Source: a virus (lineage: Duplodnaviria; Caudoviricetes). From it: a stretch of DNA of 53,861 bases. The first letter of the stretch is position 1. Each line of letters starts with the position of its first letter. Made by a program: the position numbers and the translations under genes. Shown here piece after piece: positions 8,024 through 47,600 of this stretch. The stretch is from the IMG/VR virus record IMGVR_UViG_3300008261_000101, positions 1 through 53,861 of that record. One strand, 5' to 3'. The notes under the pieces are model-generated. The model ran no database searches, was not told the DNA's origin, and saw nothing but the letters and a program-made list of their open reading frames with translations.

Positions 8024-8475
8024 ATCGAAGCGTCCTCCATACCGGCAACTCGTAACTTTACGATGTTGGTTAATTGCCATTGTTTTTGATCTAATGCTTT
8101 AAGAACGCCTAGCCATTTATTGCGCACTAATGCAAATTCATTAATAATTTTTTCATAGTCGACTACATCTGCTTCGCCGTCTACATATTTTTCAACATCG
8201 CGACTGCTTAATGCACGTTGATAATTTTCAAGATATTTCTTAAAAAAGCTGCTGCGCAATCTACGTAATTCAATGTTCAAATACTCGAGAATAGCTTCTA
8301 ACTCTTGCAGTTGATTAAATCGGTGTTCTACGATACCAGGCATATTAGCGGCAGCTTTTTCAATACTGCCGCTAATTTGTACTTCGTTACGAGCTGACAC
8401 AAGTTCGTCTTGAAAGTATTGTATTGCTTCCGGAATTTGAGAGATATCTCTTGATACTCTACTATACCATCCCAT
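8020..8475 (-). CDS. uvsY: UvsY recombination mediator
   Basis: 151-aa helical protein near uvsX, with ALSSRDVEKYVDGEAD and KALDQKQWQLTNIVKLRVAG. Confidence 0.8.
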   Translation of the reverse strand: MGWYSRVSRDISQIPEAIQYFQDELVSARNEVQISGSIEKAAANMPGIVEHRFNQLQELEAILEYLNIELRRLRSSFFKKYLENYQRALSSRDVEKYVDGEADVVDYEKIINEFALVRNKWLGVLKALDQKQWQLTNIVKLRVAGMEDASI

Positions 8476-11079: not shown

Positions 11080-11108
11080 AAACTACACAATATTATTTAT
11101 CTTGTCAA
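11080..11108 (-). promoter_or_regulatory. sigma70-like promoter with a late promoter (GATAAATA) embedded in its spacer
   Basis: TTGACA-17 nt-TAGTTT (extended TG); GATAAATA at 11094-11101. Confidence 0.7.
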
Positions 11109-24124: not shown

Positions 24125-24153
24125 ATAGTAACAAAATATAAGACTTTTGTCAA
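24125..24153 (-). promoter_or_regulatory. sigma70-like promoter for the kinase gene
   Basis: TTGACA-17 nt-TACTAT with extended TG. Confidence 0.75.
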
Positions 24154-28096: not shown

Positions 28097-28531
28097 ATGA
28101 AAAGTATTGTTTGTTCCGGTGCACTGTTTTATACATTATCCACTAGTAGATTTTTATTACTTCATAGAACGCAATCTAAACAAAACAATGTTTGGGGTTT
28201 AGTTGGCGGTACAAATGAAGAACGTGAAACTCCGTGGGAAGGGTTAAAACGAGAAATAACTGAAGAAATAGGGACTATGCCTGATATTAAAAAAGTTATT
28301 CCGTTGGAAACATTTATAAGTAACGATGAACATTTTAAATTTCACACATACTTGTGTGTAATTGACCATGAATTTGTTCCTACTTTAAACAATGAGCATG
28401 ACGGATATGCCTGGGTTAAGTTTGGAAGTTGGCCAAAACCCTTGCATACTGGGTTGGCCAACACTCTTAGACGTAAAGCAAATCAGCAAAAATTAGACAC
28501 AGTTTTTAAGATTGTTGATTTAATTTCGTAA
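28097..28531 (+). CDS. NUDIX hydrolase
   Basis: Nudix box GGTNEERETPWEGLKREITEEIG, plus LNNEHDGYAW and PLHTG; start reassigned to the ATG at 28097. Confidence 0.9.
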   Translation: MKSIVCSGALFYTLSTSRFLLLHRTQSKQNNVWGLVGGTNEERETPWEGLKREITEEIGTMPDIKKVIPLETFISNDEHFKFHTYLCVIDHEFVPTLNNEHDGYAWVKFGSWPKPLHTGLANTLRRKANQQKLDTVFKIVDLIS

Positions 28532-31500
28532 ACTGTTCTTTTAGCCAATCAAAGTCGTTGATTTTTCTTAACGCTTCGATGTTGCCTATATTATCTATAC
28601 CGTACTGCTTACCTGCATTTGCACCAGCAATACAATAATCGCCAAATTCTTTATCCTTGCCACGAGTACACCAGACGTTTAATCTAAAATCAGTTTCCTC
28701 GTCTCGCTGGCCGTCAATGGTTTTTGATGACAATTTTACACATTCTCTAAACGCACTTCTCCAAGTACTAAACGGATCGGTATTAAATTTAGTAATATTG
28801 GAAACACGGTTTATAGACTTAAACAATGTAGATATACTTGTAGTCATGTCAGGCTTGGTTGTGTCCATGGTTAGTGTTAACTCTTTAGGTAACAACTTTA
28901 CTGCACCATATCCGTATACTAAGTTATTAATAGGGTTCAGTGATTTCCAAACGTGAACTGTTTTTTTACTATCAGGGTCGTATGTTGGAATATAGTAATC
29001 AAAATTAAAATTATCAATAATCTCGGCATCAGCATCAACAACCCAGATCATTTCAGACGAACAAAGTCGTGCTGCTTCAATATGTGCTTGGTGTATGCCT
29101 TGTACTCCGTGTACACGCTTTGCGTTAGGAAATCTTTCTTTTAATTTACTATAATTTGTATCTGCATGTTCTTCGTCTTTGCTTATAAACACAATGTCAT
29201 AAGTTTTTGGATTGCTTGCTACAATGTCGTATTCTTTCTTTTCTAAATAAAATCTATGTGTTACTTCGTGTTCAATTGCTGGAAGTTTTTTACTCATTAA
29301 AGCTACGCCATCGTATGCACTGCCGTTTTTAAAGATGTGATGTATACTTCTTTCAAACCATTGATTGTGTGGAAAATACAAATCAAATTTAAAATTATTT
29401 GCAATGTCAACATCATCAGGAATTGACCAAAACATTTCTGTTTTTGAGTTTTGCACTGCATTTAAATAGTCGGCGTAATTCTTTATAATAAACTTATCAT
29501 AAACAACTGGACCACTTGCAACTATATCCCATTCTTTTCGTTTTGCAATTAATCTGTGTTCTACTTCTTTTTCAGTTAACACTATTTTTTTAGTACACAA
29601 AAATAATCCATCAAACGAAATTTCGTCACCGCATTTATGTTTAAACACGTGATTTATGTTTCTATCAAATGTCTCGTGATGACTAAAGTACATGTTTAAA
29701 TTAAACGTATCAGAGATTTTTATATTATGTGTGCCCATCCAAAACATGTCGGTAGCTGATTTTTCAAGAGCATCTAAATATTGATCATACGTGTCGATAA
29801 AAAAGAAATCATACGGCTTAGGATAAACGCCCCAGAACAATTCTGTTTTTGATTTTTCTAATGCATTTAAATAATCGTTGTAGTTGTTAACAGTAAACTT
29901 TTCATATTGACCGTTTGTGGATACAACAGTATCCCACTCTTTTGCGTTAACAATAAATCTGTGTTCTATTTCTTTTTCGGTAATAGGTTTATGTTTACTT
30001 AATAAGAACACGCCGTTAAATTTTATTTCGTTGTTGTCTTTGTGCGCAAATGCATGATTTTGTTTTCTATCATATTCATTGTCATGAGTAAAATAGATTT
30101 TTTCAAGTTCGTTTTCGTTTACTTTAATGTTGTGTGATAACGCCCAAAACATTTCTGTTTTGGTATTATCTAATGCATTGATATAATCGTCAAATGTTTC
30201 TATATAAAACTTATCATATATAACTGGACTGCTTGCAACTATGTCCCACTCTTTTGCGTTAACAATAAATCTGTGTTCTATTTCTTTTTCGGTAACAGTC
30301 TTGTGTTTCGAAATTAAAAATAAACCATTTCGATAAGTTTTACCTTCAACTTGATGAATGAAGCTATGGTGTGTTTTCCTGTCGTATTCATTTTCATGTA
30401 AAAAATACAAATCAGGAATTGTAGGAGATATGTTGCTACTACTCATCCAGAACATTTCAGGTCCATTAGAATTTAGTGCAGTTAAGTAATCGTTGTAACT
30501 GTCAATGTTGTATACAGGATACTTGACTGGACCAGAAACAATAACATTCCATTCTTTTCGTTCAACAGGATGTCTGTATTCAACTTCTTTTTCGTTTAGT
30601 GCTTTACATGTACTGCATAGTATTAAACCATTTTTATATAACTCATTGTTTACTTTATGTAAAAATACGTGTGTTTGTTCGCGATCAACTCGATTGTGCC
30701 AATCTATGTAAAAATTGTTTATATAATCATGATCTACAGAAATATTATTTGTAGATACCCAAAATAGTTCTGTTGTAGTTTTGTCTAGTGCATTTAAATA
30801 ATCATTATAATTTTCTACGTTGAATATATCATAGGGTTTCGGATGTGATGCAACTACATCCCATTCTTTTTTTTCTATATAAAACCGATGTTCAAATTCT
30901 TTTCTAGTTACTGGACTTCTTTTAGAAAAAAGTACTATTCCATCATACGAGTCTTTGTTTTTAAAAACGTGTGTAATATCTCTATCAAACATGTTATAAA
31001 AATCAAAATTAATTGAAAAGTCAAAATCTTTTTCAACTATTACGTCTTTTGGAACATGCCAAAACAATTCTGTTTTTGAAGTTTTTAATGCTACTTCATA
31101 GTCTTCATACGTGTCAAAAGAAAATATTTCGTAATTTCTAGGTTTACTTGCTACTTGTTTTATTTGTTTCTTTTGTGCTAAGAATCGATATTCCAATTCT
31201 TTATCTGTTGGAATATAGCTTTTAGGCATTAACACAATACCATCAAACTTATCATTTTTTCCATTACCGAATAAATGGGGATATTTAAAACTCCACTCGT
31301 CTGGTTCGTAATCAAACTCAAATGTTTTATCTACAATTAAATCGTCGTACACAATCCAAAACATATCTGTTACTGCTACTCTCATAGCATCTTGATAGGT
31401 TTTAACTGCAATAGCTTCGGGAAATCTTTTTCTTAAATCTTCCCATGTACCGGTTTCTTTGTCACCTAGGAAGAAAATATCAAAGTTATGTTTTCCTCTA

Positions 31501-31889
31501 TACACATCGTAGTCACCGCAAATGTTAGTTTCGGTTACAAGATGTGTTTCATCATTTACGATAGTTGGTACAAGTCTAACTTTTTCCCAACTACTTACAC
31601 GCTTGCTTTCTTTAAAAACATATGGAAAACAAATAGTACATCCATAGTCATCACGTTTGGGTTTGTAGTGCCACGGAAACGATCTATATACTTCGATATC
31701 TTTATCAACAACCCATACATAATCTGACTTATCTTTGAACTTTTCGAGTTGTTTTAAATCGTAGTTCTTTGCGTCTTCTACATATAGGATTGGAAATCTT
31801 TGCAAGATATGATTTTTTAAAACATCTTGTGCATTGTAAGTCTTTTTACTAAATTTTTTAAAACGTTCAACTGTATTCATTTGTCTCAT
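28506..31889 (-). CDS. giant tandem-repeat glycosyltransferase-like protein (about 10 GT-A-derived units, only the last with a DAD motif)
   Basis: Repeats of about 100 aa (Y..F....Y.DY..AL..S.TEMFW...FD...H.F.....DG..L...E..HRF....KEWD..AS.P); C-terminal WVVDADAEI, YGYGAVKLLP and WRSAFRECVKL. The start may be 31880. Confidence 0.7.
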   Translation of the reverse strand: MRQMNTVERFKKFSKKTYNAQDVLKNHILQRFPILYVEDAKNYDLKQLEKFKDKSDYVWVVDKDIEVYRSFPWHYKPKRDDYGCTICFPYVFKESKRVSSWEKVRLVPTIVNDETHLVTETNICGDYDVYRGKHNFDIFFLGDKETGTWEDLRKRFPEAIAVKTYQDAMRVAVTDMFWIVYDDLIVDKTFEFDYEPDEWSFKYPHLFGNGKNDKFDGIVLMPKSYIPTDKELEYRFLAQKKQIKQVASKPRNYEIFSFDTYEDYEVALKTSKTELFWHVPKDVIVEKDFDFSINFDFYNMFDRDITHVFKNKDSYDGIVLFSKRSPVTRKEFEHRFYIEKKEWDVVASHPKPYDIFNVENYNDYLNALDKTTTELFWVSTNNISVDHDYINNFYIDWHNRVDREQTHVFLHKVNNELYKNGLILCSTCKALNEKEVEYRHPVERKEWNVIVSGPVKYPVYNIDSYNDYLTALNSNGPEMFWMSSSNISPTIPDLYFLHENEYDRKTHHSFIHQVEGKTYRNGLFLISKHKTVTEKEIEHRFIVNAKEWDIVASSPVIYDKFYIETFDDYINALDNTKTEMFWALSHNIKVNENELEKIYFTHDNEYDRKQNHAFAHKDNNEIKFNGVFLLSKHKPITEKEIEHRFIVNAKEWDTVVSTNGQYEKFTVNNYNDYLNALEKSKTELFWGVYPKPYDFFFIDTYDQYLDALEKSATDMFWMGTHNIKISDTFNLNMYFSHHETFDRNINHVFKHKCGDEISFDGLFLCTKKIVLTEKEVEHRLIAKRKEWDIVASGPVVYDKFIIKNYADYLNAVQNSKTEMFWSIPDDVDIANNFKFDLYFPHNQWFERSIHHIFKNGSAYDGVALMSKKLPAIEHEVTHRFYLEKKEYDIVASNPKTYDIVFISKDEEHADTNYSKLKERFPNAKRVHGVQGIHQAHIEAARLCSSEMIWVVDADAEIIDNFNFDYYIPTYDPDSKKTVHVWKSLNPINNLVYGYGAVKLLPKELTLTMDTTKPDMTTSISTLFKSINRVSNITKFNTDPFSTWRSAFRECVKLSSKTIDGQRDEETDFRLNVWCTRGKDKEFGDYCIAGANAGKQYGIDNIGNIEALRKINDFDWLKEQFTKLNQQS

Positions 31890-32478
31890 CTAAAATAAAT
31901 GCTTTTATTCCGTAGTGTGCTACTTGTTTACTCAAGTCAACATCAATAAAAGTTTTGAATCCATACTCGTTTGCTTGTCTGCAAAAATAAATATCTTCAC
32001 CTACAAAGTTGTCTTCTGCTTCGTTATAAATGTGAGTAAACCACGGCTTAGGTAACGTTTCAAAAACTTTTCGACTTACTAACATGCACCCCATTCCAAC
32101 TGCCCAAACTTTATGCAAGCCTGTTTTGGCATCTAGCCTAGCATCTAGATCGTGCTGATTGATAAATGCAACACTTCTTAATGGTTTAACTCTTGTGCTA
32201 TAAGTTGCAGCAACAATATCTTTATTGTGTGCGAGCAACTGATCAACTGTGTCTTTTGGAAAGTGCATGTCACTGTCGAGCCAAAGTAAATAGTCCGATC
32301 CACTTTGTAATGCACGATTTGCTAGTATTTGTCGTAGGTCTGGAATAACAGTTCCTAATGCAGAAAATATTTCAAAATCTACACCGGACTTTGCCAAGTG
32401 CGAAGTTAAATTAGCAAGAGACTTGGCAAATCCTAGGTGTACATAGTTGTGTGAAGGAATGCATATTGCAATTTTCAT
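31867..32478 (-). CDS. GT2-like glycosyltransferase
   Basis: IAICIPS, LLWLDSDMHFP (DxD), GMGCMLV and GEDIYFC. Confidence 0.8.
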   Translation of the reverse strand: MKIAICIPSHNYVHLGFAKSLANLTSHLAKSGVDFEIFSALGTVIPDLRQILANRALQSGSDYLLWLDSDMHFPKDTVDQLLAHNKDIVAATYSTRVKPLRSVAFINQHDLDARLDAKTGLHKVWAVGMGCMLVSRKVFETLPKPWFTHIYNEAEDNFVGEDIYFCRQANEYGFKTFIDVDLSKQVAHYGIKAFILDETNEYS

Positions 32479-32879
32479 TAAACTAGCTCTTGACTAATCA
32501 AATCTAGATTCAATTCCTTTTCAGTTGCTAGTGTGAGTTTGTTTAGTTTGTTTGCTGTACTTGTTGCTTTTTTTACAACCTCTGCAAATTCTTTTTCAGG
32601 AAGCAGTGCCATTGCTAACATTGTTTCCGGTTGTACTTTACCTAAAGTTAGAAGATCTGCCGCTGCACGATTACCAAAATGTTCAATCCAATGGTGTTTG
32701 TCATCGGCTTCTGCTCTACCCAAAACTTCTTCTTCGGTTTCACTGCCTAAGATTTTAGTTTTAATAGATTGTTCTAGTTCCTTGTCTTCTAAATTAATAG
32801 ATTTTAATTTTTTAAGTTTTCTTGCCTTACTAAATTCAGTAGCAAGAATAACATTCTCGAGTTCATATGCTGTTATCAT
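32478..32879 (-). CDS. hypothetical protein (133 aa)
   Basis: GAGGAG SD; translationally coupled to the GT2 gene. Confidence 0.75.
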   Translation of the reverse strand: MITAYELENVILATEFSKARKLKKLKSINLEDKELEQSIKTKILGSETEEEVLGRAEADDKHHWIEHFGNRAAADLLTLGKVQPETMLAMALLPEKEFAEVVKKATSTANKLNKLTLATEKELNLDLISQELV

Positions 32880-32897
32880 AAAAGTATTCTCCTCAAA

Positions 32898-33071
32898 TTA
32901 ACTACCTTGACCACCGAATGTGGCACTAAGACAAATAAATGTACCTGAAGAAATACCTAAGTATGTTCCTAGTACACCCATGAATATAGGAGTTCCGGAA
33001 AGCCCGAAGTAAGTGTTTACATCGCTCATACAAATGAGACTACCTGTTGGTGGTAACGATCCTGTTGCCAT
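32898..33071 (-). CDS. 57-aa Gly/Ser/Thr-rich small protein (below the ORF-track cutoff)
   Basis: MATGSLPPTGSLICMSDVNTYFGLSGTPIFMGVLGTYLGISSGTFICLSATFGGQGS*; AGGA SD; promoter upstream; fills the gap exactly. Confidence 0.8.
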   Translation of the reverse strand: MATGSLPPTGSLICMSDVNTYFGLSGTPIFMGVLGTYLGISSGTFICLSATFGGQGS

Positions 33072-33091
33072 ATATATTCCTAGTTTTTACT

Positions 33092-33120
33092 ACAATAGCA
33101 GAGTATTTAATTTAAGTCAA
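33092..33120 (-). promoter_or_regulatory. sigma70-like promoter with an embedded TAAATA late promoter
   Basis: TTGACT-17 nt-TATTGT (extended TG); TAAATA at 33104-33109. Confidence 0.65.
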
Positions 33121-33122
33121 GT

Positions 33123-33149
33123 AGGATAGCCAAGGTTTTTGGCTATCCT
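33123..33149 (-). terminator. terminator after the giant fibre gene
   Basis: AGGATAGCCAA-N5-TTGGCTATCCT, an 11-bp stem. Confidence 0.8.
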
Positions 33150-33154
33150 TACTT

Positions 33155-36100
33155 TTATTTATCGAGTACTTTCTGAAGCATTGATCTCAACTCGTCAATT
33201 TGTCTTTGCTGTTCTTTAAACGCTTCGATAAATGCACCAGCAAAAGCACCGTAGTTAACTGACTTAATACCGTCCTCGCCTTCATGCACAACTTCTGGAA
33301 AATATTTCTCAACTTCTTGTGCAATAACACCCATATGTCTACGTTCGGTGTCTTCTTTATCGGTTCTTGTAAATGTCACACCACGTATGCTTAATATCTT
33401 GGTTAGCGGATCTGCAATAACTTCAATGTTATCTTTAACTCTAACGTCAGAGAAAGCACAAACATCACCAGTTGCAGTAAAAGTTCCATCGCCAGTTAAT
33501 ACTGCGGCTTGTGTAGTTCCGCCGTACCATCTGAAGTATGTAGTAGCACTAGCAGTTGGAACACTGTGCCACAATGTACTGCTTCCGATACCTATTGCAT
33601 AATCCACTGCCGCAGCACCTATAGCTGGATATAATAATAGTTTAGTACCGGCGCTTCTTGTGGTAAATGCAGGTAAGTCAACACCGTTGACGTTCCAGTC
33701 AATTCTGTTACCGCTTGCACCATTTAGATAAAGTTGACTGCTGCCTGCTGTAGCATTATTTGCACCAGATAGTATCAATGTTTGTGTACTTGGATTTATA
33801 CTGAAGTTAGTGTTAACAAGACCGGTTTGTGCACCTGTGGTGTTTGCAACAAACGTAATGTATCTAGTTGCGTTTGTCGAGTCAGTTGCAATGCTTTGTA
33901 GTGTATCAGTGTTTGTGTCAGTGTCACTCCACGGAACGTTTACTACCAAGTTGTCACTGCCGTCAACTTGAACTGCGTATGTTCTACTTGCTGTTGCACT
34001 AACTGCGTTTGATGCAACTGTTTGTGTAGTAGCATTTACGTTTGCATTAAATGTTGTGCCACTTAACGTTAATCCTGTTCCTGCTGTATAAGTTGTATTT
34101 GTGTCAACTACAGTTTCAGTTGCAGTTGTTAATCCAGTTACGTGACCGTATGTATCAAGTGTAACAGATTGGATATATGTTCTGCCAGTATTAGATAACG
34201 AATTTTGACCACTTGTATTTGAGTGACTGATTGTTATTCGATCTGCAACTGTATCAGCTACTAGATCGATACCGTTTGTGCTATCTACTGCTCCTGCTCT
34301 AATATATAGCGTATCATTGTTACTGTCTGCAACAACTGTATCAATTGCGGTACCATCAGATTGTTCAAGTGTGATGTTTTTAAATATATTCTGCGAGCTG
34401 CCGAGATCAGTGTTTGTAATACGAATAGCGTCACTTGTTGCAGCCACGTCGATATTAATACCAGATCCGCTTACTAGCGTTAGTGTGTCTCCAGTAGTAT
34501 CTGCAACAGCACTGCCTGTTTCTGCCCAGGTATATCCGCTGTCGGTATCAGTTACTGTAACAGTACCAAAGTCTGAACTTTGGCTAGTTAAGTAAGTTGC
34601 AGTTGTAACCGCAGTTACGTGACCAAAACCATCAAGAGTGATTGCAGCAATACCTGCACTACCTTGAGCGCCAGTTAATGTGCTGGTGTCTGCGTGTGCA
34701 ATTGTAGCTGCTGTACCTTCACCTGCTGTTGCACTGATAGTAAGCCCGCTTGATGTTGTTTCTGCACCAGGTGTGCCAGCAGCTACAGTTGCAACATAGT
34801 TACCAGTGGTGTCAGTCCCGAGCGCAACACTGTCGGCTGCAATTGTTGCTGTCAGTGTAACGGCTGCACTTCCGTCAATGCTTACGCTACCACTTAAATC
34901 GCCACCTAGTGTTATAGTTCTAGCTGTTGCCCACTTGGTTGCTGTTGCTGCGTTACCAGAAACGCTAATTGCATAAGTGCCTGTTAGTCTGTCGCTAGGC
35001 ACTGTACCACTGGTTAGCTGGCTAGCATTAAGAGTTGTTAATCCGCTACCATTACCGTTAAATATACCATTGGAGTATACGTTTCCGGCAACACCTAAAC
35101 CTCCGCCGATGATAACAGCACCGGTTGTATGGCTAGATGAAGCAGTTGTGTCGCTAAATGTCTTAGCTCCTGCCATAGTCTGAGTACCGCCTAGTCTTGC
35201 TCCGTCTACAGTACCACTTGATAGGTTTGAAGCATTTAAGGTTGTTAATCCGCTACCGTTGCCAGTGATTGTACCGCCAAGGTGAATGTTTCCAGCAACA
35301 CCTAGTCCTCCGCCGATGATAACAGCACCGGTTATAGTACTAGATGAAGCAGTAGTATCACTAAATGTCTTAACTCCTGCCATAGTTTGGTTTCCGCCTA
35401 AGCGAGCACCTGCTACTGTACCACTGGTTAATTCAGTCGCATTAAGAGCAGTTAAGTTTGTACCCACTCCGGAGAAGCCACTGGTTCCACCAAATGTTAA
35501 TGTTGTTGTACTAGCTGTTAAAGTAACGCCCGGAATTCGGAAGTTGGTTATACTACCGTTACCTAGTGTAATTTCGTTGCTGGTTGTACTTGTGCTTGCG
35601 TCTGCATTATAACCAATAACAATGTTATTACTGCCTAATGCAATGCTATCGCCAGCATTACTACCGATAGCAACGTTTTGTTTACCAGTGGTAATTGCAA
35701 GTGCCTGATATCCAACTGCAACGTTGTTTGTAGCTGTATCGCTTACAGTGCCGGTTGTGTTTTGCATCGATTGAGCACCAACAGCAACGTTGTATCCAGC
35801 ATTTGCTGCGGCTTGTGCTAGTGCATCATTTCCTATTGCAGTATTATGTGTTGAGCTAGTAACAAGAGCCAATGCTGTATTACCAAGTGCAACGTTATCT
35901 GTGCCTGTAACAACAGCACCCATTGCACCGACACCGACTACTAGATTGTCAGTACCGGTACTTATAGCTTGTCCACCTGCTATTGCAAGATTGGTTGCAC
36001 TATTTCCACCGCCACGACCGACTTTGTGGCTGTTTACAGTTATATCACTGGTAAATGTTTTTCCTGCTTGCGATGTAGGCAAATAGGAATCACTTATAGT

Positions 36101-39100
36101 ACCAGAACTTATATTTGAAGCATTTAGAGTTGTTAGTCCGCTACCATTACCAGTGAATGTACCACCAGAGTGAACATTTCCAGCAATACCGACACCGCCG
36201 TCAACAACTAATGCACCTGTTGTAGTGCTGCTCGAAGCAGTTGTTGCATCTATGTTTACATCTGGTTTAAGAGCAATAGCATTGCTACCAGTTGTACTTG
36301 TGAAAACAATAAAGTCATTTGATCCGTCTGTGATACTTAACCCGTCTACTAGGTTTGTAGGGAATACAATTTCGTTTTCGGTAGTTGCACCCTTAAAGTT
36401 TACGCTTTCACTTAGATACAAGTCTTTCCATGCAAGTGAACTTGTACCCAAGTCTCGAGCATCATTTGTACTTGGTTCTAAGTTGCTGTCCATACGTCCT
36501 ACAAATGTTATAGTGTCGGAAGTGGCATTACCTAGATTGATATCTCCATTTAAATCTGTTTGTCCTGTTACAGTTAGTGTACCTGCAACAGAAGTATTAC
36601 CACTTGCTACTACTACACGAAACTTTTCAGATCCGCTGGCGCCGATATCAAAGTTGGTACCATCAAAGCGGAAGTTTGCATCGTCTTCTACTATGCCACC
36701 AGTTCCTGCAATAACAATACGGTTATTGGTCAAGTCACTTATAGTTGCACTGGCTAGGGTTGATTCACCGGTAACACCCAATGTTCCTGCAACGGAAGTA
36801 TTGCCACTTGACGCAGTTACAGTAAATTTATTTGTATTAACTGAAAAATCGCCGCCGATGTCTCCTAGTCCGGAAACATCTAACGTACCAATGGTTGCTG
36901 TTCCGTTGACATTTATGCTTGTAGCTGTTAGATTCCCTTCAAACGCATCTGCAACAACAGTGCCGAGACTAAACGATGCATCGGCGACATTGATGTTGCC
37001 GGTTATTGCAGGATCGTATTCATCAAAGAACTTAAACTTTTGATCTGTAACATCAAAGAAGAATCCTAGATGAGTGTATCCTACACCCGATGTCCCTGTG
37101 TTTCTGTTTCCTGTAACACCAACATCAACGTTTACCGGCGAAGCACTACCTGACCAGATATCGTTTAGTGTGTGTCCTGTTGTCGATACCCACACAACAC
37201 TGATACCGTCTGCTAGTGCTACAGGGTCTGTATCTACATCAATGTCAGTTGCTTCTGTTGTAGAAAAGTTATCCAATGACCATTCAAACGTGTCAACTCC
37301 TCCAGTACCGCCGCCGACACTGTCTATTCTTACATAGAATGTTTGTGTTGTTGTACCCTGGTAGTGTCCTACTAGTGTAGCATCATCTAACCCTGTACCG
37401 GTGAATGTTGTTCCATCGTTTCCTATTGTGTCTCCAGAATTTAAATATATAAAACTAGAGTCAACTTCTAAGTTGTTCAATTTAACACTAGATTGACTAC
37501 CTAGTACTATTAAGTCTCCTGCAACTGTAACATCAGCATCGAAGTATGCACCTTCGGTGACTCTAAATTTTTCTACTGTGTGACTTCTTAGTTCGATGTA
37601 AATTGATCCTGTGCTTGCATTACTGGTTAAACAGATACCGATATCAACTGGGAAGTTAGGATAATCGGGTGCAGTTTGCACTAGTGTTCCTGGAGCATCA
37701 AACCCTAAGTGAATCTTTTGTCCAGATGTTAAGTTACTGGTATCGATACCGTCGATATATCCACTAACAATAACATAACCTTCTGCTCCGTTTGCAATAT
37801 TATGTCCTGCTAATCCTATAACTTCTATTTTGTTAAGATCGCTAGCATCGGCTAATGCAACTGTTGGATAGCGTCCAAAAACAGCATCTCCTGCAATATA
37901 AACACCTGTTACATAAACAGGTTGACCTTTATTGATAGTTGCGCCTGAACTGTTGCGGCAACGAATAAATTCACGTTCACCTAATGTAATGTCAAAGTTA
38001 CTATTATTGCTAAACAATACCAATGACTCAAAATCGCTGTCATAGTATAGTCTGCCTTCTTGGTATGACGGACGACTTGAATATGCAGTCGGTGAAAAGT
38101 CTATTCGGCCCAGGTTAGCTTCAGTTACGTTAACTGTACCATTGACGTATAAGTTTTCTGCAATACCAACTCCGCCGTCGACAACTAATGCACCTGATGT
38201 ATAACCAGTAGATCCTGTGGTTGAATTAAATGTGACATTACCATCAACTGTAAGAGCATCATCTACTTTTACATCTCCTGTAAACGTTGCCAGACCACTG
38301 GTGTCTATTGTTAGACGTGTAGTTGATGTTTGCTCAATAGCACTGGACGATCCAACTTCACCTGTTTTTACAACAAAGTTGCCGCCGGTGGCATTACCTG
38401 TTCCTAGTCCGGCTTGTATAGTAAATGCGCCGCCGGCTATGTTTGTTCCTATACCGCTTTCACCTTTGAGTGTTGCATTTGCAGTACTGCTACTTGCTTC
38501 TGCACTACCGAAAATAACATTTCTGTTTCTTATTAACATTGTGTTATCTTTAGTAAGTGTTCCTGCAATAGGCGATGACGAACTTACAGTAACGTTTGCA
38601 TTGGTTTTTATAGTAAAGCTAGTAGCGTTAAATGTTGCGCCTAGTACTGGCCATTGTCCATCTAAGTTAGAAACAGTGCTACTAGCTATGTTAATGGTGT
38701 CGCCTGCTCTGATGCCTAATGTAAACGGAGTATAGGTAAATGTTAATGTTGTACTTGACGATATTGTTCCAGTTGTTTCTGCACTCAAATAAACATAATC
38801 AGTTGTAACACCGGAAACTGTTGTATTTGCAGGAATACTAGCAGAACCAGTTACTAACATGCCTGCTAGTATTCCACTAGTACTTGCCATTGGAACTTCT
38901 TTGTCACCATTTCCAGTAATACCGTCTGTTGCTGCGGTAAAAGATTCTAAGTTTACTGTTACTGTTGTTGAGGAGGTTGCATCGTAGTTGTCAATGAAAC
39001 TTGTTATATTTCTTGTAGCAGTACTCTTACCTATTTTTACAGTTTCGGCAGCAGATCCTAATTCTAGTGTAGTAACATTATCATTGTATACCAAACCAAT

Positions 39101-42100
39101 TCCTGTGCTTGTTGAAGAAAGTCTTGCTGATCCTACGTCTAGCCCTTCTGCTAGATCTAGTGCAGTACTCCATTCAGGTGTTGTACCATTAGATTTCAAG
39201 AAGTTGTTTGCTCTACCAATGTTTAATGTGTTTAGTGTACTTGTAGATTGTGCATATATGATATCACCTTGTGAATATGCTGATAGGTTAGTTCCGCCCT
39301 TGTTTACAGGAACATTAGAAGTTAAGTTAGAAGGATCCAAGAAATAAGAACTGTCAAGACTGTCTAGTGTTCCTGCATCTACTACTCCGTCCTTGATAAA
39401 CACTTGTCCTGACGCACCGGTGTCTACATCAAATTGACTTTGTAAGAATCTAGCAGTACCAAGTGTTGAATATAGTTCGCCCGGATCGTAATCAACGTTA
39501 GCAATACCAATACTTACGTCTCCGTAGTATTCTCCCGATATGTTAGAACCTGTAAGTGTTATAGGGTTATCGGTTGTATTTGCTTCTATCAAATTCTGCA
39601 CTACAACTCGATAACTGCTATCTCCGTACAATACAGTATCAGAGTTTGCTGTTCCCGAACCTGCTAATCTAGTAGGAGATACAATACCTGAAATAATGTT
39701 ACTTGCATCTATGTTTGTAACTGCTAAACTATTCCAGTTTGCTTTTAATCTACTGCTTGTATTAACAACGCCGTTTACTTGTACGTTTTGTAGTATTACA
39801 ATTGCATGGCCAACACCTGTTGATGTAATATTCTTTGCACCTACAACTAACCCGTTAATACTAGCAAGTGCGTCACTTCTTAGTTCGTGTAGTGTAAAGC
39901 TGTTGGTTGTTACAGATCCAATAAAGAATCTACTGCCGTCGACTATTTCAGTAGAAGCTATATCAGGCAATGCAGAAACTGAACTTCCATCATTTTCGAT
40001 GCTGATTTTTATAGCGTCTCCTGTTGCAAATCCGTGATTAACTACAGTAATACTATTGTCAGCAATGTTAACTACATATCTAGTTAAGTTGTGATTGTTG
40101 TTTGCTGGAGTACTTAAAAATTCTATTTTATTAACTAAACTAAAATCTTCATACAGCTCAATTGTATTAGCAGTAATACTTTTTGCATAATAAACTTCGC
40201 CATTTATCATGCCTCCTATAGCAACGTTTCCTAGAGTATTATATGATACTGGATCGCCGTTTGAATATCCATGGTTTGTTATAGTAATTCTATAATTTAC
40301 ATAATCAACGTTACCGCCAGCGCCTACATCTCCGGCTAAGAAATTTTGACTAATTGAATCTTCTAAATCGATGATTTGCTTTGTAAGAGGAGCATCGTTG
40401 TCTTCGACAAAATCTACAGATGACGTACTTGCAACAAAAAGCTCTCCACCTATGATGTTAACATAAGCACGCTTTTCTATTGCAGTGATTTCAATTTCAA
40501 AATCGTGTCCAAGACCTACGCCGTCAAAGTTCGGATTGACTGAAAGCAGATCACCAACAGCATATCCTGTGCCACCTCTTCGAATGTCAACATCTACGAT
40601 ACAGGCATCAGTAACTGTTAAGTCAGCAAGTGCACCGGTTCCTACTCCGGTTACAGAAGTCAACGGAATCATTTCCCAAACATATGTACCTGTTGCAGGA
40701 GCATAGTCGAATCCTGGTGTAAAGTTTGTATTGTCGACGTTTGTACACACACCGTATCTTGTTTCTGTAACAGCACCTTGTGCATTTCCGTCGGCACTGG
40801 TTACAAGAGTATAAGCATATCCTGTGACTGCTTTAATTGATTCATTTGCTCCAGTGTTTGCAATGGTAAATGTAGTGTTTGTAGGTATTGACAGCACTAT
40901 ACCGTTTTCATCGTATAGGTGGTCGCTAGCATCTACTCTAACACTATTGCCAACTCTTAGATTATGATTTGTCAAAGTTGTGATTGTTGCAACGTTGCTG
41001 GATCTTGAAACAAAGGTAATCGCTGCACTAGTAAAATTATAATCGTCGTCATTTGACAATATCAAATACTGGCTACTATTAGAACTTTTTAAGAAGAAGT
41101 TATCTATAATTGCACTGCTAGTACCTTTGCTTGACGGTTTTATACCAGAATCAACGTTGTTAACATACAAGTTAGGAGCCGATACTCCTGTATCCCACGG
41201 GTCGCCGGTGCTGTCGTCAGTTGAATCCCATTCGCCCTCGACAGAAGCAACAAGTAAGTTTAGTGATGCACCGTAATTGCCCTTTGCATATCCTACGGCA
41301 CCAGCAATACCGGGTTGACTGATTTCGTCGCCGTCGTTTACTGTTATACCAGATGGCAATGTAAGTTCTACCTGTTCGTATTCTTCAGTTGCAATGTCCC
41401 CAGCTTTTAAGTCTACTGCTGGAATTTCGTCAACTTGTAATAGTCTAGATAGATATCCTTGTGTTGTTGTACTAGTAAACTGTCTTGTTGCTGGAATCAA
41501 TTCAGGATTTAATTGACCGTTAGTATTAAGTTGTACAATTGCACCAGGAACAGCAGCCGTTGATACTGCCTTGTCAATAAATCCACCTAGTCTGTTTGAT
41601 AAGAAACTTCTAATAGCCAACTGTGTCGACAAGCGTGAATTGCTAGAACCGCCTAGTTCGTCGTCACCTAAGTTAACATTTGTTGAAATTTCTTCAATTG
41701 CAATATCTGATAATGTTAGTCGTAGTGCATCGAGCTCGTCAACTTGTACTTTATTTCTAAATGTGATATTACCGGTTCTGTTGTATGCTGTAATAAAAGT
41801 GCCAACTTTAAAGTCGCCAAGTTCGTTTGTACCTGATGTATAAACACGACCAGGTAGTTCTTCATATTGTTCGTATTCTTCTCTAGTTCTTCCGCCGTTT
41901 TGTGGTAAAGCGTTATAGTCTACACCAGATCCTGAATATTCCCATGTGTGTGACGAACTGTTAACAATACTAGGTCTGTGGAACCAACACTGCTTTTCTG
42001 GTAAGTTTGCTAGATTTGTTAAGGATGTCCCAACAACAGTACTTTGTATTGTAAATGTTGCAGTACCGAGACCTGCATAGTTTGAGACTTCGTTGATTCC

Positions 42101-44639: not shown

Positions 44640-47600
44640 TTAGAATGTACCACCGTCTATTGTATCAGTCCAGACCGGAGTAGAATCAATGTTACTTGTG
44701 ACAGTTAGTATTTGATATGAAGTAGTAATGTCGCTTGCACCAGCAGCGGCAGTTACTTGTATCGGATTAGCAGTATCGCCATATAGTATTCCGTTTTCAG
44801 TAAATGTACTAGCACCTGTACCGCCGTATTGTACTGCTAAGTCATTATTAGTTAGTATTAATGATCCGTTAACAGTTAAATCTTCGTCAACTGTTAAGTC
44901 TTCGTTAACTGTTACACTTTGATCAAATGTAGTTAGTCCGCCGGTTTTACCTATATTAATTACAGTTGCATTTCCAAATGCATTAATTGTAGTTGGCGTT
45001 ACATTTAGTAAATTAAATGTACCAGCACTAGTTGTAATATCGCCGCCGTTTACAGCTAAGTCGCCAGTTATAGTTGCAACAGTTGAGCCTAGTTTAAACT
45101 TTTCTGTTAACGTTCCGTTTGTCATTGTTTTAAATGACATCTCAAAATATTCAGCCAAGTTAGTTACATTTGTTACAACTACATCTAAAATGCCGCCTAT
45201 TGTGAATATACTGGTGTCAGTTTCTAATTCAAACTTTAGTCCAGTACCGCTGTTTACAGTAGGCGTGCCAGACACACTATGATGTGCAAGTATAATTGGA
45301 TATACAATTGCATCGGCACTACTGTCTGGAGCATTTGATATGAATTTAATTTCCTCAGGAGATTCAATTGTGCTAGCTTTGATGATAATCTTGTCACTTG
45401 CATAATTGGTTAGCTGTAGTACTCCACTAGTGTTACCGCCAATGTATTGATTAACGTGTAGTTCTTTACCGATGCCAACTCCGCCAGTAACAGTTAGTGC
45501 ACCAGTATTATAAGCCGAACTTGCTGTAGTATTTTCTATTCTTACATCAACAGTATCGTCAATTCTTAAACGTGCTGTACTTAAATTCATACGCTCTATA
45601 CCATCGGTATAGAACATCAATTCGTTTTCGTTTGCAGCCGGAGAACTTTCAGCAATTATGTATGTATTGCCGTCGACATCTCGCACGCCGCCGAGACTAT
45701 TCCACGCAATACCGTCGTATCCTTCAAATTGTCCTACGTTGGTATTGAAACGAACTTGACCAGTAACAGAAGTCGGTCTTTCGGCTGTTGTACCAACTGG
45801 TAGTTGAATGCTAGCTACACTATCAAATATTGTTAGTTCGTTATTAACTGTTAACGTACCAGTTGCTGCGCCTATGTTTAAAGTAGTTGCTGCACCAAAT
45901 GCATTGACAGTAGTAGCAGTTGTATTTAATATGTTAAATGTACCAGCAGTTGTAGTAATGTCGCCACCGTTTACAGATAAGTCTCCGGTTACAGTTGCAT
46001 CTTGTACCACTGACAAGTTTGCCCCTACATTTAAATTCTTTTCAATACCTACTCCGCCCTGAACAATTACTGCACCGGTGTCTTTATCAGAACTATCAGT
46101 TTCGTTAAGTACTATTATATTAGGTACAGTGCCAAACTTGATCGATTCACTACTGTTAGTTGTATCAATTGCTACATAAGAATTAGTTGATTCTTTAATT
46201 TCAAATGCAACTGCAATGTTATCAGGAATGTTAAATTCTGCATCACCGGTAACAACCAGTGAGTCTACTGCGGCATTACCTAGGTCTATACTACCGTTAA
46301 TTGTTAAGTCGCCGTTAACACTTAAATTACCGCCAATTCCGACACCACCGGTAACAACCAATGCACCAGTTGAGTAAGTTGAAGAATTTGTTGTATTAAG
46401 TATATTGACAATAGGAGTTTCACCGAACGTAACATTTTCGGTACCGTTAACTGTGTCAATTGTAAAATAGTTAAATGATCCTTGATAGATACTAAACACG
46501 TCGGATGTATTGTCAGGAACACTGACATTTGCAATTCCTGTAATAGTTACGTCATCTTGAAATAAAGAAGTTCCTATTACTTCAAGGGTGTTATTAACAG
46601 TTGTTGTACCTATTAATGCACCGATATTAATGTCAGTAGCACCGCCGAACGCATTAACAGTTTGTGCGTTGTCGTTAATCAGGTTAAACGTTACTGCGGT
46701 ACTAGAAAGGTCTCCACCGTTAACTTGGATGTCAGTTTCAAATATTACATCATCTTCGACTGTGCCGCCTGTAATTTTATTCAAGTATCTATTTTCAACA
46801 TAGGAAATTACAGCAGTTTGTGTAGGAACAGTATAACTATCGGGTATACCCAAGCTCGATGTTAAGTCACCGTTTTCGCTTACTTCTCTTAATTCAACGC
46901 CAACTGGTATACCATCTCTTCTAAATGGTCCAATTGACGTAATACCACTTAAACTAATTTCGTTTGCATTAAGCGTAATTGCACCTGTTAGTGCGTTAAC
47001 TCTAAAGAAGTTACCAACTTTAAAGTTACCAATTTGATCGACTACACCTCCGGCAAACACTTTACCGTTGTTAGTTTCAACAAATTCATTTGCTGCTATA
47101 GGTACGCCACCGAAGAACGGTAACGCATTATATGTAATGCCTGCACCTACATATTCAAACGCATGTCCGGAAGTAGATATAGTACTCACGTTTTGTAAAC
47201 TTGATAGTGTGTTATCTAGTACAAATGTAACACCAGGGAACAATGATATAGTTGCAGTACCACCATATTCTTGATTTAACATTATAATTGTTTCATCAAC
47301 AATATCATCTGTGTTGGTTAAGATCAATTCTCGTTTTGCATTAATAGTAACATCAGCTAGTGTGCTGTAGCTGTGATTTACTTCTGTAGGTAATGACGTA
47401 TTTCCATTTTTAATAACTTCTGCTATTTTTTCTACTAGAATCCATATGTAGTTTGCTGAAATTGAACTCCCTGCAGAACTACCGATTACTTGAGTTTCTG
47501 TAACATCTTCGCTTGGAGTAATTGTATTGTTTAATGCTATTTCTTTTAATACAGTTGCAAGATGTTTATAAGAAAATTCCGAAACACCTGACTGATCGGC

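What the first reader, a model, noticed from the sequence alone, without database searches (positions are those of the whole stretch)
28506..33149. Peptide + unknown + GT2 + GT-repeat operon behind the fibre: candidate glycosylated fibre-tip cap or phage glycopeptide system
Seen: after the fibre terminator, a dual promoter (sigma70 plus TAAATA) drives an unannotated 57-aa ORF with three quasi-repeats (ICMSDVNTYFG / IFMGVLGTYLG / ICLSATFGG), then a 133-aa unknown and two GT genes with overlapping stops and starts. The fibre has a Cys just before its S74 cleavage site (GDVCAFS-D), and the peptide has two Cys. Known: in T2-type phages a monomeric gp38 caps the trimeric, chaperone-cleaved gp37 tip. 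Inference: this is a minimal pseudo-threefold cap with no adhesin domain that is glycosylated by its operon, giving a glycan-based adhesin or shield. Alternatively it is a RiPP-like precursor with its modifying enzymes.
Basis: inference. Interest (0 to 1): 0.75.

Follow-up and report, generated by a model that had tools for sequence, protein, structure and literature searches.

The report
Small cap protein on fibre tip

Summary
Behind a 3793-aa fibre with a C-terminal S74 chaperone come a conserved hairpin, a conserved early-type plus late-type promoter, a 57-aa ORF of three quasi-repeats, a 133-aa unknown, a 203-aa GT-A glycosyltransferase and a 1127-aa protein. The last is seven degenerate GT-A-derived repeats plus an intact GT-A domain.

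The 57-aa ORF is a real gene: 103 distinct viral loci and 58 clusters in 1.84 billion proteins. A complex prediction places one copy on the cleaved fibre trimer, one repeat per chain (ipSAE 0.86, best control 0.00). The fibre Cys touches both peptide Cys, and these three Cys occur only in the window's subclade.

In 10 of 103 loci the same module is the N-terminus of large proteins. Their C-terminal parts are unrelated to each other, and some are lectin-like. That is the architecture of the gp38 adhesin, without detectable sequence kinship.

The cap is never seen without the 133-aa gene and the GT (92 of 92). It lies directly behind an S74 fibre in 74 of 86 loci. Glycosylation of the cap or tip is untested. 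The RiPP reading is disfavoured. No homologue was found in 50,697 deposited phage records. All evidence is computational.

The parts
33155..44536 (-). Giant tail fibre gene (3793 aa)
   Evidence: ORF; PHROG tail-fibre families and Pfam Peptidase_S74 in its last 999 aa
33158..33451 (-). S74 intramolecular chaperone domain of the fibre (residues 3696-3793), with Ser3696 and Lys3701 five residues apart
   Evidence: Pfam PF13884, E 2.9e-15; position; the Ser/Lys spacing matches S587/K592 of MyRF and S911/K916 of endoNF (PMC8326128 section 7)
33452..33469 (-). Last six residues of the mature fibre (GDVCAF, 3690-3695): the predicted docking strand for the cap
   Evidence: Named interface residues 145-150 of all three fibre copies; G[ED][VI]TA[YF] is conserved in all cap-bearing relatives; the cap-less PA5oct fibre has ...NAVFNT instead
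33123..33149 (-). Conserved hairpin between the fibre gene and the cap gene
   Evidence: 12-pair stem; hairpins with compensatory stem changes in relatives
33092..33120 (-). Early-type sigma-70-like promoter (TTGACT-17-TATTGT, TG before -10) with a late-type TAAATA (33104-33109) in its spacer
   Evidence: conserved in relatives; the same type precedes the SSB and dNMP-kinase-like genes
32898..33071 (-). Cap/anchor protein, 57 aa, three repeats (residues 9-24, 25-41, 42-57); AGGA about 10 nt before the ATG
   Evidence: 103 distinct loci; 58 representative clusters; pN/pS about 0.36-0.44; complex model
32478..32879 (-). 133-aa helical protein of unknown function (phrog_1409), stop overlapping the GT start
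   Evidence: present in 92 of 92 cap loci; no Pfam or PDB relative
31867..32478 (-). 203-aa GT-A-type glycosyltransferase (phrog_1574)
   Evidence: PHROG hits; D68, D70, E161, D162 and H188 invariant in 72 sequences; weak Anp1/GT2 matches below Pfam cut-offs
31437..31889 (-). N-terminal module of the 1127-aa protein (residues 1-151), contains VVDKDIEV
   Evidence: Sequence; not folded here
29202..31436 (-). Seven ~100-aa degenerate GT-A-derived repeats plus one truncated copy (residues 152-896)
   Evidence: Anchors; hhalign against the C-terminal GT-A domain gives probability 96.4, E 1.3e-9; copy number varies among relatives
28509..29201 (-). C-terminal complete GT-A domain of the 1127-aa protein (residues 897-1127) with an invariant DxD
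   Evidence: AF2 pLDDT 91.6; Foldseek gives 97 matches at E<=0.001, and the 33 listed rows are glycosyltransferases; VIA Z 11.6; D156 and D158 invariant

Best explanation
The 57-aa protein is a virion tip protein. After the fibre trimer has folded and its S74 chaperone has cut itself off, each of the three chains ends in ...GDVCAF.

One copy of the peptide then docks on that end. Its three repeats each lay a short strand (LICMS, PIFMG, FICLS) against the last residues of one fibre chain. A monomer thereby caps a trimer by internal pseudo-threefold symmetry.

In the window's subclade the fibre Cys faces peptide Cys14 and Cys47, so two disulfides could lock the cap once the virion is outside the cell.

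In most relatives the module stands alone. In about a tenth it is the N-terminal anchor of a large protein whose C-terminal part varies and is in some cases lectin-like. The family therefore works as a docking module for tip adhesins, with the same logic as gp38.

The cap gene is transcribed with a 133-aa protein and two GT-A enzymes from a promoter that combines early-type and late-type elements. The most likely role of these enzymes is to glycosylate a virion component at or near the tip.

Shown: the genes, their conservation, the GT-A folds and catalytic motifs, the neighbourhood. Predicted: the complex. Inferred: presence in the virion, the disulfides, the acceptor of the sugars.
For: Complex model. 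Fibre residues 3546-3695 in three copies plus one cap gave ipSAE 0.85, 0.86 and 0.87 against 0.00 for the best of 3 controls. Cap pLDDT was 90-91 and the runs share at least 98% of contacts. The mark was reached by 116 of 157 solved complexes and 2 of 215 mismatched pairs; these counts hold only roughly here because my own alignments were used. Named contacts are fibre 140, 142 and 145-150 of all three copies with cap 10-16, 27-32 and 42-50. Fibre Cys148 touches cap residues 14, 30 and 47.

Fold on its own. The cap alone folds only to pLDDT 70.7, as expected if it needs a partner.

Cysteines. Cys at the fibre position and at cap positions 14 and 47 occur together only in the window's subclade. 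All the other tip/cap combinations listed have T or V in the fibre and no Cys in the cap.

Docking strand. The fibre end G[ED][VI]TA[YF] is conserved in every cap-bearing lineage while the domains before it differ. The cap-less PA5oct has ...NAVFNT before its S74 Ser.

Position. The S74 end lies within 150 nt upstream of the cap in 74 of 86 loci with enough upstream DNA.

Fusions.
- 10 of 103 loci carry a fused cap, and 20 longer clusters exist.
- The C-terminal parts of 28 fused proteins fall into 15 unrelated groups.
- 4 of 15 scanned fused proteins reach a Pfam cut-off: Laminin_G_3, BACON_2, F5/8 type C and PD40.

Structural echo of gp38. In a search of 48,161 chains only 5 reach Z>=2, and one is residues 2-44 of S16 gp38 in the gp37-gp38 complex (Z 2.5, rmsd 2.6, 43 aligned). 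That segment is part of the N-terminal three-helix attachment domain (PMC6851490 section 2.7, passages read).

GT side.
- The 133-aa gene and the GT are present in 92 of 92 cap loci.
- Catalytic motifs are invariant and the GT-A fold is confirmed.
- Homologues of the small GT sit directly behind the major capsid gene in three unrelated phage groups.

RNA. Contigs 100% identical to the window in RNA libraries of three studies cover the cap, the 133-aa gene and the GT.
Against: - There is no experiment. The complex is one model family's confidence, run with a fibre alignment of only 5 rows.
- A solved gp37-gp38 complex exists (6F45), so some recall of that arrangement cannot be excluded.
- The controls were unrelated proteins, not a non-cognate fibre tip.
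- 12 of 86 loci do not have an S74 fibre directly upstream. In 6 the S74 end lies 150-2500 nt upstream, and in at least the L286 type another gene lies between. In 6 none was found in the DNA held.
- The cap is linked more tightly to the 133-aa gene and the GT than to the fibre.
- The promoter resembles those of the early SSB and dNMP-kinase-like genes, which is unusual for a structural gene.
- The Cys coincidence is one lineage, so one evolutionary event.
- The match to gp38 (Z 2.5) is far below significance, and profile searches find no sequence kinship.
- No conserved exposed Ser or Thr marks a glycosylation site. The nearly invariant Thr9 is Val in three distant members.
- DNA carry-over in the RNA libraries is not excluded.
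Confidence: 0.62

Rival explanations
1. The peptide is not a virion part. It works inside the cell with the 133-aa protein and the GT, as an acceptor, primer, carrier or regulatory subunit of a glycosylation machine. Its place behind the fibre gene is inherited gene order.
For: The triad of cap, 133-aa gene and GT is invariant (92 of 92), while adjacency to an S74 fibre is not (74 of 86). In L249-L253 and L256 the triad lies behind membrane or LamG-type genes. The promoter is early-type. The stop of the 133-aa gene overlaps the GT start.
Against: The complex model places the peptide on the fibre end with clean controls, and the Cys positions fit. Fusions to LamG, BACON, discoidin and PD40 domains suit a displayed protein, not an enzyme subunit. 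Binding of the peptide to the 133-aa protein or to the GT was not tested.
Confidence: 0.15
2. The cap reading is right, but the two glycosyltransferases act on something other than the virion tip: host envelope polysaccharide, or phage DNA. They share the operon only for timing.
For: The early-type promoter fits enzymes needed from the start of infection. Roles of phage GTs in DNA glucosylation and host serotype change are reviewed in PMC12619734 (section 12, passages read). In cyanomyoviruses the small-GT homologue lies among 2OG-Fe(II) oxygenase genes. The window also carries a nucleotidyltransferase-like gene and a methyltransferase gene.
Against: The cap is never seen without the GT (0 of 92). 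The small-GT family lies directly behind the major capsid gene in three unrelated phage groups. Glycans on capsid and tail-tube subunits of Mycobacterium phages are reported in Freeman et al. 2023, which I know only as cited in PMC12619734; the paper itself is not held.
Confidence: 0.3
3. The peptide is a RiPP-like (glycocin-like) precursor that its neighbouring enzymes modify and that is released as a free product.
For: It is a small peptide next to GT-A enzymes. The glycocin S-glycosyltransferases ThuS and SunS are among the fold matches of the large GT (Z 10.5 and 9.8). The window's peptide has two Cys.
Against: The Cys are absent from all other family members. No leader or double-Gly site is present, and no protease, exporter or thiol-disulfide enzyme lies in the cassette. 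The module is fused to large binding domains in relatives. The fold matches are generic GT-A.
Confidence: 0.03

Closest known systems
gp38 adhesin of T2/S16-type phages (gp37-gp38 tip complex, PDB 6F45)
   Same: A single protein caps the trimeric distal fibre. Its gene lies just behind the fibre gene. A small N-terminal attachment part with three helices is arranged every 120 degrees (PMC6851490 section 2.7), and the cap model has three short helices. Fused relatives have the layout 'anchor plus variable binding domain'. There is a weak structural match to gp38 residues 2-44 (Z 2.5).
   Different: No sequence kinship is detectable. The window's form has no beta-helix, glycine-rich motifs or hypervariable loops. 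The fibre here folds with its own cleaved S74 chaperone. The predicted contact is strand pairing with the last six fibre residues, not Trp residues in side pockets. The gene is always accompanied by a GT.
PAAR-repeat spike-tip proteins (T4 gp5.4, T6SS PAAR); recalled from memory except for the abstract of PMC12407873 in the listing
   Same: A small monomer with internal threefold pseudo-symmetry caps the blunt end of a trimeric beta-structure. Family members carry added domains as cargo.
   Different: No Pfam family, PAAR included, matches the cap (0 families). PAAR sits on the cell-puncturing spike, not on a fibre. No Zn-binding or PAAR motifs are visible.
Separate tail-fibre chaperones proposed as transient caps in Alteromonas phages (PMC10579305, abstract read)
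   Same: A small protein encoded behind the fibre gene is proposed to sit on the fibre's distal end.
   Different: Those proteins resemble S74-type chaperone domains and stand in for them. Here the fibre has its own S74 domain and the cap is an unrelated three-repeat peptide.
Virion glycosylation operons of Mycobacterium phages (Freeman et al. 2023, known to me only as cited in PMC12619734; Thibault gene order)
   Same: A homologue of the 203-aa GT is the first gene behind a major virion protein gene, within a multi-GT operon inside the structural module.
   Different: There the neighbour is the capsid gene, and there is no cap peptide, no 133-aa partner and no tandem GT-A repeat protein. Whether the window's enzymes modify a virion protein is not known.

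Membership tests
gp38-type fibre-tip adhesins | One copy caps the trimeric fibre tip | tested here: met
   By prediction only: ipSAE 0.86 against 0.00 for the best of 3 controls, one repeat per fibre chain
gp38-type fibre-tip adhesins | Sequence kinship to gp38 | tested here: not met
   0 Pfam and 0 PHROG families for the 57-aa protein. A profile of 51 sequences against PDB sequences does not list 6F45 gp38 up to E 10
gp38-type fibre-tip adhesins | Three-helix N-terminal attachment domain | tested here: inconclusive
   The AF2 model has three short helices at pLDDT 70.7. VIA gives Z 2.5, rmsd 2.6, 43 aligned to 6f45_D residues 2-44, one of only 5 chains with Z>=2 among 48,161
gp38-type fibre-tip adhesins | Glycine-rich motifs and hypervariable segments forming the receptor-binding domain | tested here: not met
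   The sequence is 57 aa and ends right after the third repeat. Fused relatives carry other domains
PAAR spike-tip proteins | PAAR-motif domain recognisable by profile | tested here: not met
   No Pfam family matches at E<=0.01
S74 (intramolecular chaperone) fibres | C-terminal Peptidase_S74 domain with a Ser-Lys dyad five residues apart | tested here: met
   PF13884, E 2.9e-15, 56.8 bits against a cut-off of 22. S3696 and K3701 are in SDVRVK. The spacing is that of MyRF and endoNF
GT-A glycosyltransferases (203-aa protein) | DxD motif and further catalytic residues conserved | tested here: met
   D68, D70, E161, D162 and H188 are invariant in 72 sequences
GT-A glycosyltransferases (203-aa protein) | Profile match above a curated cut-off | tested here: inconclusive
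   Anp1 scores 26.0 bits against 28.8 and Glycos_transf_2 16.7 against 23.3. PHROG glycosyltransferase families match at E 6e-7. STIV A197 matches at E 0.13. The fold was not predicted
GT-A glycosyltransferases (C-terminal domain of the 1127-aa protein) | GT-A fold with DxD | tested here: met
   pLDDT 91.6. Foldseek gives 97 matches at E<=0.001, and the 33 listed rows are glycosyltransferases. VIA gives Z 11.6, rmsd 2.7, 137 aligned to B4GALNT1, with nucleotidyltransferases of the same fold also listed. D156 and D158 are invariant in 29 sequences
RiPP / glycocin precursors | Conserved modified residues (Cys or Ser), a leader, and a dedicated protease or exporter | tested here: not met
   The Cys are not conserved. 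The family is conserved from Met1 with no leader-like part. No such genes lie in the cassette
Sortase substrates (LPXTG) | C-terminal LPXTG followed by a hydrophobic stretch and a charged tail | tested here: not met
   [LIVF]-P-x-[TV]-G is conserved but lies at residues 6-10 of the N-terminus and no such tail follows

The most novel reading that the evidence does not exclude
The business end of this phage's giant fibre is a phage-made glycan. The three-repeat cap, locked on by disulfides in this subclade, or the fibre stub it covers, is glycosylated by the co-transcribed 133-aa/GT pair. The tandem GT-A-repeat protein then extends the glycan, and its variable number of dead GT-A modules sets the length or reach of the chain. 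Cap-only phages would then adhere or hide through sugar, while relatives swap in protein lectin domains on the same anchor.
Probability: 0.22. Interest if true: 0.87.

Novelty: new variant of a known kind. Interest (0 to 1): 0.72.

Why it matters
Many phage fibres and spikes fold with an S74 chaperone that cuts itself off. What, if anything, then covers the freshly exposed end has not been described for this class.

A 55-aa docking module that fits a conserved six-residue fibre stub, and accepts unrelated binding domains, would be a compact natural system for swapping host-recognition parts. It would be useful for reading host range in uncultured freshwater and marine jumbo phages.

The strict pairing of the cap with a glycosyltransferase, and the tandem dead-GT-A protein with variable copy number, make a concrete, testable case for glycosylation at a phage's receptor-binding tip.

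No relative was found among 50,697 deposited phage genomes, so the family is so far known only from metagenomes.

Tried and rejected
- DNA search of the operon against deposited phages: no match.
- tblastn of the cap (E<=1) and of a distant 133-aa homologue: no match.
- Foldseek of the cap model against PDB: nothing at E<=0.001.
- Profile of the 133-aa family against PDB sequences (E<=5): none. Pfam scan of its 35 members: only scattered chance-level hits.
- ESM Atlas for the 133-aa protein and the large GT's C-domain: unnamed viral clusters, and GT2 or GT92 only as weak leads at 0.86 and 0.84.
- BLASTP of the 133-aa protein against the 100-aa ORF that precedes the GT in MW202711: E 43.
- Covariation beyond the Cys between the fibre stub and the cap strands: none seen. 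The extra residue after TAY in many fibres does not track the cap's C-terminal tail.
- Thr9 as a glycosylation site: weakened, because it is Val in three distant members.
- The search for related loci with the alignment of distant caps failed for lack of a conserved stretch; a single protein was used instead.
- The scan with the LamG-fused member returned mostly LamG relatives without the cap.
- RNA contigs leave most of the 1127-aa gene uncovered. That is no evidence of anything.
- Earlier-findings look-ups returned nothing.
- Freeman et al. 2023 is not held, so its details and supplements could not be checked.
- Not done for lack of jobs: complexes of the cap with the 133-aa protein, with the GT, or with a non-cognate fibre tip; folds of the 203-aa and 133-aa proteins.

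Full report
WHAT IS THERE

The window is a fragment of a virus record, with a CheckV completeness estimate of 15%. It belongs to a T4-like jumbo myovirus.
- It encodes a tail sheath, tail tube, gp15-type sheath stabiliser, TerL, UvsX, UvsY and an SSB.
- Its gp15 is most like those of PA5oct, Atu_ph07, Phosso and SCTP-2, at 30-40% identity.
- Near-identical DNA stands in 15 runs labelled lake water, freshwater or, oddly, fungus metagenome, each holding at least 0.83 of the sampled words.

The finding's genes all lie on the minus strand:
- fibre, 33155-44536, 3793 aa;
- a 57-aa ORF, 32898-33071;
- a 133-aa ORF, 32478-32879;
- a 203-aa ORF, 31867-32478;
- a 1127-aa ORF, 28506-31889.

The stop of the 133-aa ORF overlaps the next ATG (TAATG). 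The 203-aa and 1127-aa ORFs overlap by 23 nt. The 3' end of the 1127-aa ORF overlaps the convergent NUDIX gene.

THE FIBRE END

The fibre carries Peptidase_S74 at its C-terminus (E 2.9e-15). The catalytic Ser is residue 3696, in SDVRVK, with Lys five residues on. In MyRF the cut falls between P586 and S587, and S587 and K592 correspond to S911 and K916 of endoNF (PMC8326128, section 7, passages read). The mature fibre should therefore end ...TATGDVCAF at residue 3695.

THE SIGNALS BETWEEN THE FIBRE AND THE PEPTIDE

There is a 12-pair hairpin at 33123-33149. Its T-run is on the + side only. It is followed by TTGACT-17-TATTGT with TG before the -10 hexamer.

I compared the intergenic DNA of the relatives. 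Most keep the same four elements: a hairpin whose stem sequence differs but still pairs, then TTGACA, then a 17-nt spacer that mostly holds TAAATA followed by TGTG, then a TAnnnT hexamer and an AGGA. A few lack the hairpin or the TAAATA.

In the window the pattern TTGACW-N17-TANNNT has 7 matches against 2.27 expected; 1 of 100 shuffles reaches 7. Three of the matches lie in intergenic DNA on the coding strand: before the SSB gene, before a dNMP-kinase-like gene, and before the peptide.

GATAAATA, which resembles the T4 late promoter (that resemblance is recalled), has 10 matches against 3.83 expected; 2 of 100 shuffles reach 10. Most lie just upstream of structural genes: the 753-aa virion protein, tube, adaptor and fibre genes among them. 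One overlaps the fibre's stop codon at 33156-33163.

The 'dual promoter' is therefore a fair reading. The operon has an early-type promoter plus late-type boxes, as the SSB gene does.

THE PEPTIDE IS A REAL GENE

A scan with the 203-aa protein kept 80 viral loci out of 147 confirmed. tblastn found the peptide in 72 of these 80. Seven of the misses end before the place where the peptide would lie. The eighth, L006, has a divergent fused copy that a profile found later.

Further scans with cap queries added loci. After removing duplicates by the sequence around the cap, there are 103 distinct loci from 225 locus entries.

Other points:
- pN/pS has a median of 0.44 over 1313 pairs, and 0.36 over the 111 pairs with pS below 0.5.
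- The family is conserved from Met1. M1, P7, S49, G53 and G54 are invariant in 51 sequences.
- An exhaustive profile search of 1.84 billion representative proteins finds 58 at E<=0.001 and 18 at E<=1e-10.
- tblastn against 50,697 deposited phage records finds none at E<=1.
- There is no Pfam or PHROG family for it.

THE SAME MODULE AS AN ANCHOR

In L015, L023/L025, L068 and L077/L080 the roughly 55 residues are the N-terminus of proteins of 494 to 1041 aa. The counts are 10 of 103 loci fused and 20 longer clusters in the large protein collection.

The parts behind residue 60 of 28 fused proteins fall into 15 groups with no BLAST link between them. Of 15 fused proteins scanned, 4 reach a Pfam cut-off: Laminin_G_3, viral BACON_2, F5/8 type C and PD40. 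One has only a sub-threshold hit and 10 have none. One protein, P0034, has a tail-protein domain inserted between repeat 1 and repeat 2.

A constant small N-terminal part with swapped binding domains behind it is the usual make-up of receptor-binding proteins that dock on another virion part. That general statement is established knowledge, recalled.

THE COMPLEX

I modelled three copies of the last 150 residues of the mature fibre, with an alignment of 5 rows, and one copy of the peptide, with an alignment of 51 rows.
- Scores were 0.85, 0.86 and 0.87. The best of 3 controls scored 0.00.
- Partner pLDDT was 90-91, and the runs share at least 98% of contacts.
- The mark was reached by 116 of 157 solved complexes and 2 of 215 mismatched pairs. 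The tool notes that these counts hold only roughly, because my own alignments and several chain copies were used.

The named interface is fibre residues 140, 142 and 145-150 of each copy with peptide residues 10-16, 27-32 and 42-50. That is one repeat per fibre chain. Fibre Cys148 (residue 3693 of the fibre) is paired with peptide residue 14 on copy 2, residue 30 on copy 1 and residue 47 on copy 3. Residues 14 and 47 are the two Cys.

Alone, the peptide folds only to pLDDT 70.7, with three short helices at 15-22, 31-38 and 48-52.

Two observations that the model did not use agree with it:
- Cys at the fibre position and at peptide positions 14 and 47 occur together only in the window's subclade. 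Every other combination listed has T, or twice V, in the fibre and no Cys in the cap.
- The fibre stub G[ED][VI]TA[YF] is kept in all cap-bearing lineages, including those whose gp15 is only 32% identical, while the domains before it are unrelated. PA5oct has an S74 fibre at the syntenic place but no cap or GT beside it, and its fibre ends ...NAVFNT.

Caveats:
- This is a prediction.
- The controls were unrelated proteins.
- The Cys pattern is one lineage.
- A solved gp37-gp38 complex exists, so the arrangement is not foreign to such models.

COMPARISON WITH GP38

A search of 48,161 solved chains with the lone-peptide model gives only 5 chains at Z>=2. One is chain D of 6F45, residues 2-44 (Z 2.5, rmsd 2.6, 43 aligned).

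According to the structure's authors, the N-terminal three-helix bundle of gp38 attaches to the gp37 trimer with one Trp per helix, inserted every 120 degrees (PMC6851490, section 2.7, passages read). gp38 is monomeric and modular (PMC12032242, abstract and passages read).

The Z score is not significant, and profile searches show no kinship. I therefore file the cap as working like the gp38 attachment domain, not as a member of that family.

THE ENZYMES

The 203-aa protein matches phrog_1574 (E 3e-27) and PHROG glycosyltransferase families. It stays under Pfam's cut-offs. D68, D70, E161, D162 and H188 are invariant in 72 sequences.

Its homologues occur in 144 deposited phage records. They lie directly behind the major capsid gene in a 39.7-kb phage from a spring, in Microcystis phage Mel-JY34, and in Mycobacterium phage Thibault. 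In Thibault the homologue opens a run that includes a kinase, a methyltransferase and four more transferase genes. In P-SSM2 it lies between 2OG-Fe(II) oxygenase genes, just before the baseplate genes.

The last 331 residues of the 1127-aa protein fold at pLDDT 91.6. Foldseek gives 97 matches at E<=0.001. The 33 listed rows are glycosyltransferases, among them polypeptide GalNAc transferases, RmlT, WrtF and SunS. VIA-align gives:
- Z 11.6, rmsd 2.7, 137 aligned, to B4GALNT1;
- Z 10.5 to ThuS;
- Z 9.5 to the PBCV-1 capsid-glycosylating enzyme;
- nucleotidyltransferases of the same fold, also listed.
All these align to model residues 98-240. The DxD is invariant in 29 sequences.

Residues 152-896 are seven repeats of about 100 aa plus one truncated copy. 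A profile of the repeats aligns to the C-terminal GT-A core with probability 96.4 and E 1.3e-9. The DxD is lost in four of the seven repeats.

Relatives range from 236 to 1496 aa, with 0 to 11 repeat hits. 13 of 92 loci lack the C-terminal domain. Contigs of a strain 90-95% alike show skips and returns inside the repeat region.

THE 133-AA PROTEIN

It matches phrog_1409, a family of unknown function. It has no Pfam or PDB relative, and the Atlas gives no family. It always lies directly before the small GT.

NEIGHBOURHOOD

- Of 92 distinct cap loci with at least 4500 nt downstream, 92 have the 133-aa gene, 92 the small GT and 79 the large GT-A domain.
- Of 86 with at least 600 nt upstream, 74 have the end of an S74 domain within 150 nt. 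Six have one 150-2500 nt away; in the L286 type a 453-aa non-S74 protein lies between. Six have none in the DNA held; membrane or LamG-type genes precede the cap in L249-L253 and L256.

Much of this is one broad phage clade with conserved gene order, so the counts are not independent events. The small GT itself occurs widely without the cap.

EXPRESSION

Contigs 100% identical to the window, from RNA libraries of three studies, cover parts of the operon:
- 32881-33139, which is the whole cap ORF and its promoter region;
- 32730-33027;
- parts of the 133-aa gene and of the small GT;
- the 5' end of the large gene.
The tool warns that DNA can be present in such libraries.

VERDICT

- The cap reading is the best-supported explanation, at about 0.6.
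- The link to glycosylation rests on neighbourhood and on analogy only.
- The RiPP reading is unlikely.
- In kind this is a new variant of a monomeric tip protein on a trimeric fibre, without detectable kinship to the known ones, and it is so far confined to uncultured phages.

Noticed in passing
window 33156-33163 (minus strand): A perfect GATAAATA overlaps the fibre's stop codon, 85-92 nt before the cap ATG and upstream of the hairpin. An RNA-library contig reaches up to 33139. A late transcript for the cap operon might start here and carry the hairpin in its leader.
   Followed up: partly
window 11080-11108 and 24125-24153 (minus strand): The same TTGACA-17-TAnnnT promoter type as before the cap precedes the SSB (gp32-like) gene and a dNMP-kinase-like gene. 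The SSB one also holds GATAAATA in its spacer.
   Followed up: partly
window 29820-29912 (residues 660-690 of the 1127-aa protein): A truncated repeat copy (31 residues) runs straight into a full repeat, as after unequal crossing-over. Relatives carry 0 to 11 repeats, and a related strain's contigs show skips and returns between 29825 and 30825.
   Followed up: partly
window 32898-33071, residues 6-10 of the cap: [LIVF]-P-x-[TV]-G (LPPTG here, LPATG in most) is the best conserved stretch of the family and looks like a sortase motif, but it lies at the N-terminus and mostly outside the named contacts. Its role is unexplained.
   Followed up: partly
window 6617-7387 and 7403-8080 (minus strand): A gene with a heptose-phosphate adenylyltransferase-like N-terminal part and a cupin-like part, next to a methyltransferase gene. 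These are possible sugar-nucleotide supply genes for the GTs.
   Followed up: no
window 44640-52238 (minus strand): A second giant fibre-like gene (2532 aa) lies directly upstream of the 3793-aa fibre. No S74 test was made on it.
   Followed up: no
L253:2705-5945: Three tandem LamG-type genes (280, 394 and 406 aa) precede a stand-alone cap in place of an S74 fibre. L249 has membrane-protein genes there.
   Followed up: partly
L154-L158 (distant relatives): These keep fibre(S74), cap, a longer 133-aa homologue (185-192 aa in L154-L156) and the small GT, but lack the large repeat GT. A 128-142-aa ORF on the other strand lies in its place.
   Followed up: partly
L082 (PA5oct, MK797984.1 90324-93955): The cultured relative has an S74 fibre (gp159) at the syntenic place next to NUDIX and gp15, but no cap, 133-aa gene or GT. 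A 202-aa gene without a Pfam family (gp160) abuts it.
   Followed up: partly
window 28506-28531: The 3' ends of the 1127-aa gene and the convergent NUDIX gene overlap by 26 nt.
   Followed up: no
one search run table: Eight of the 15 strong DNA holders are labelled 'fungus metagenome', although the others are lake or freshwater. This is probably a labelling matter of one campaign.
   Followed up: no
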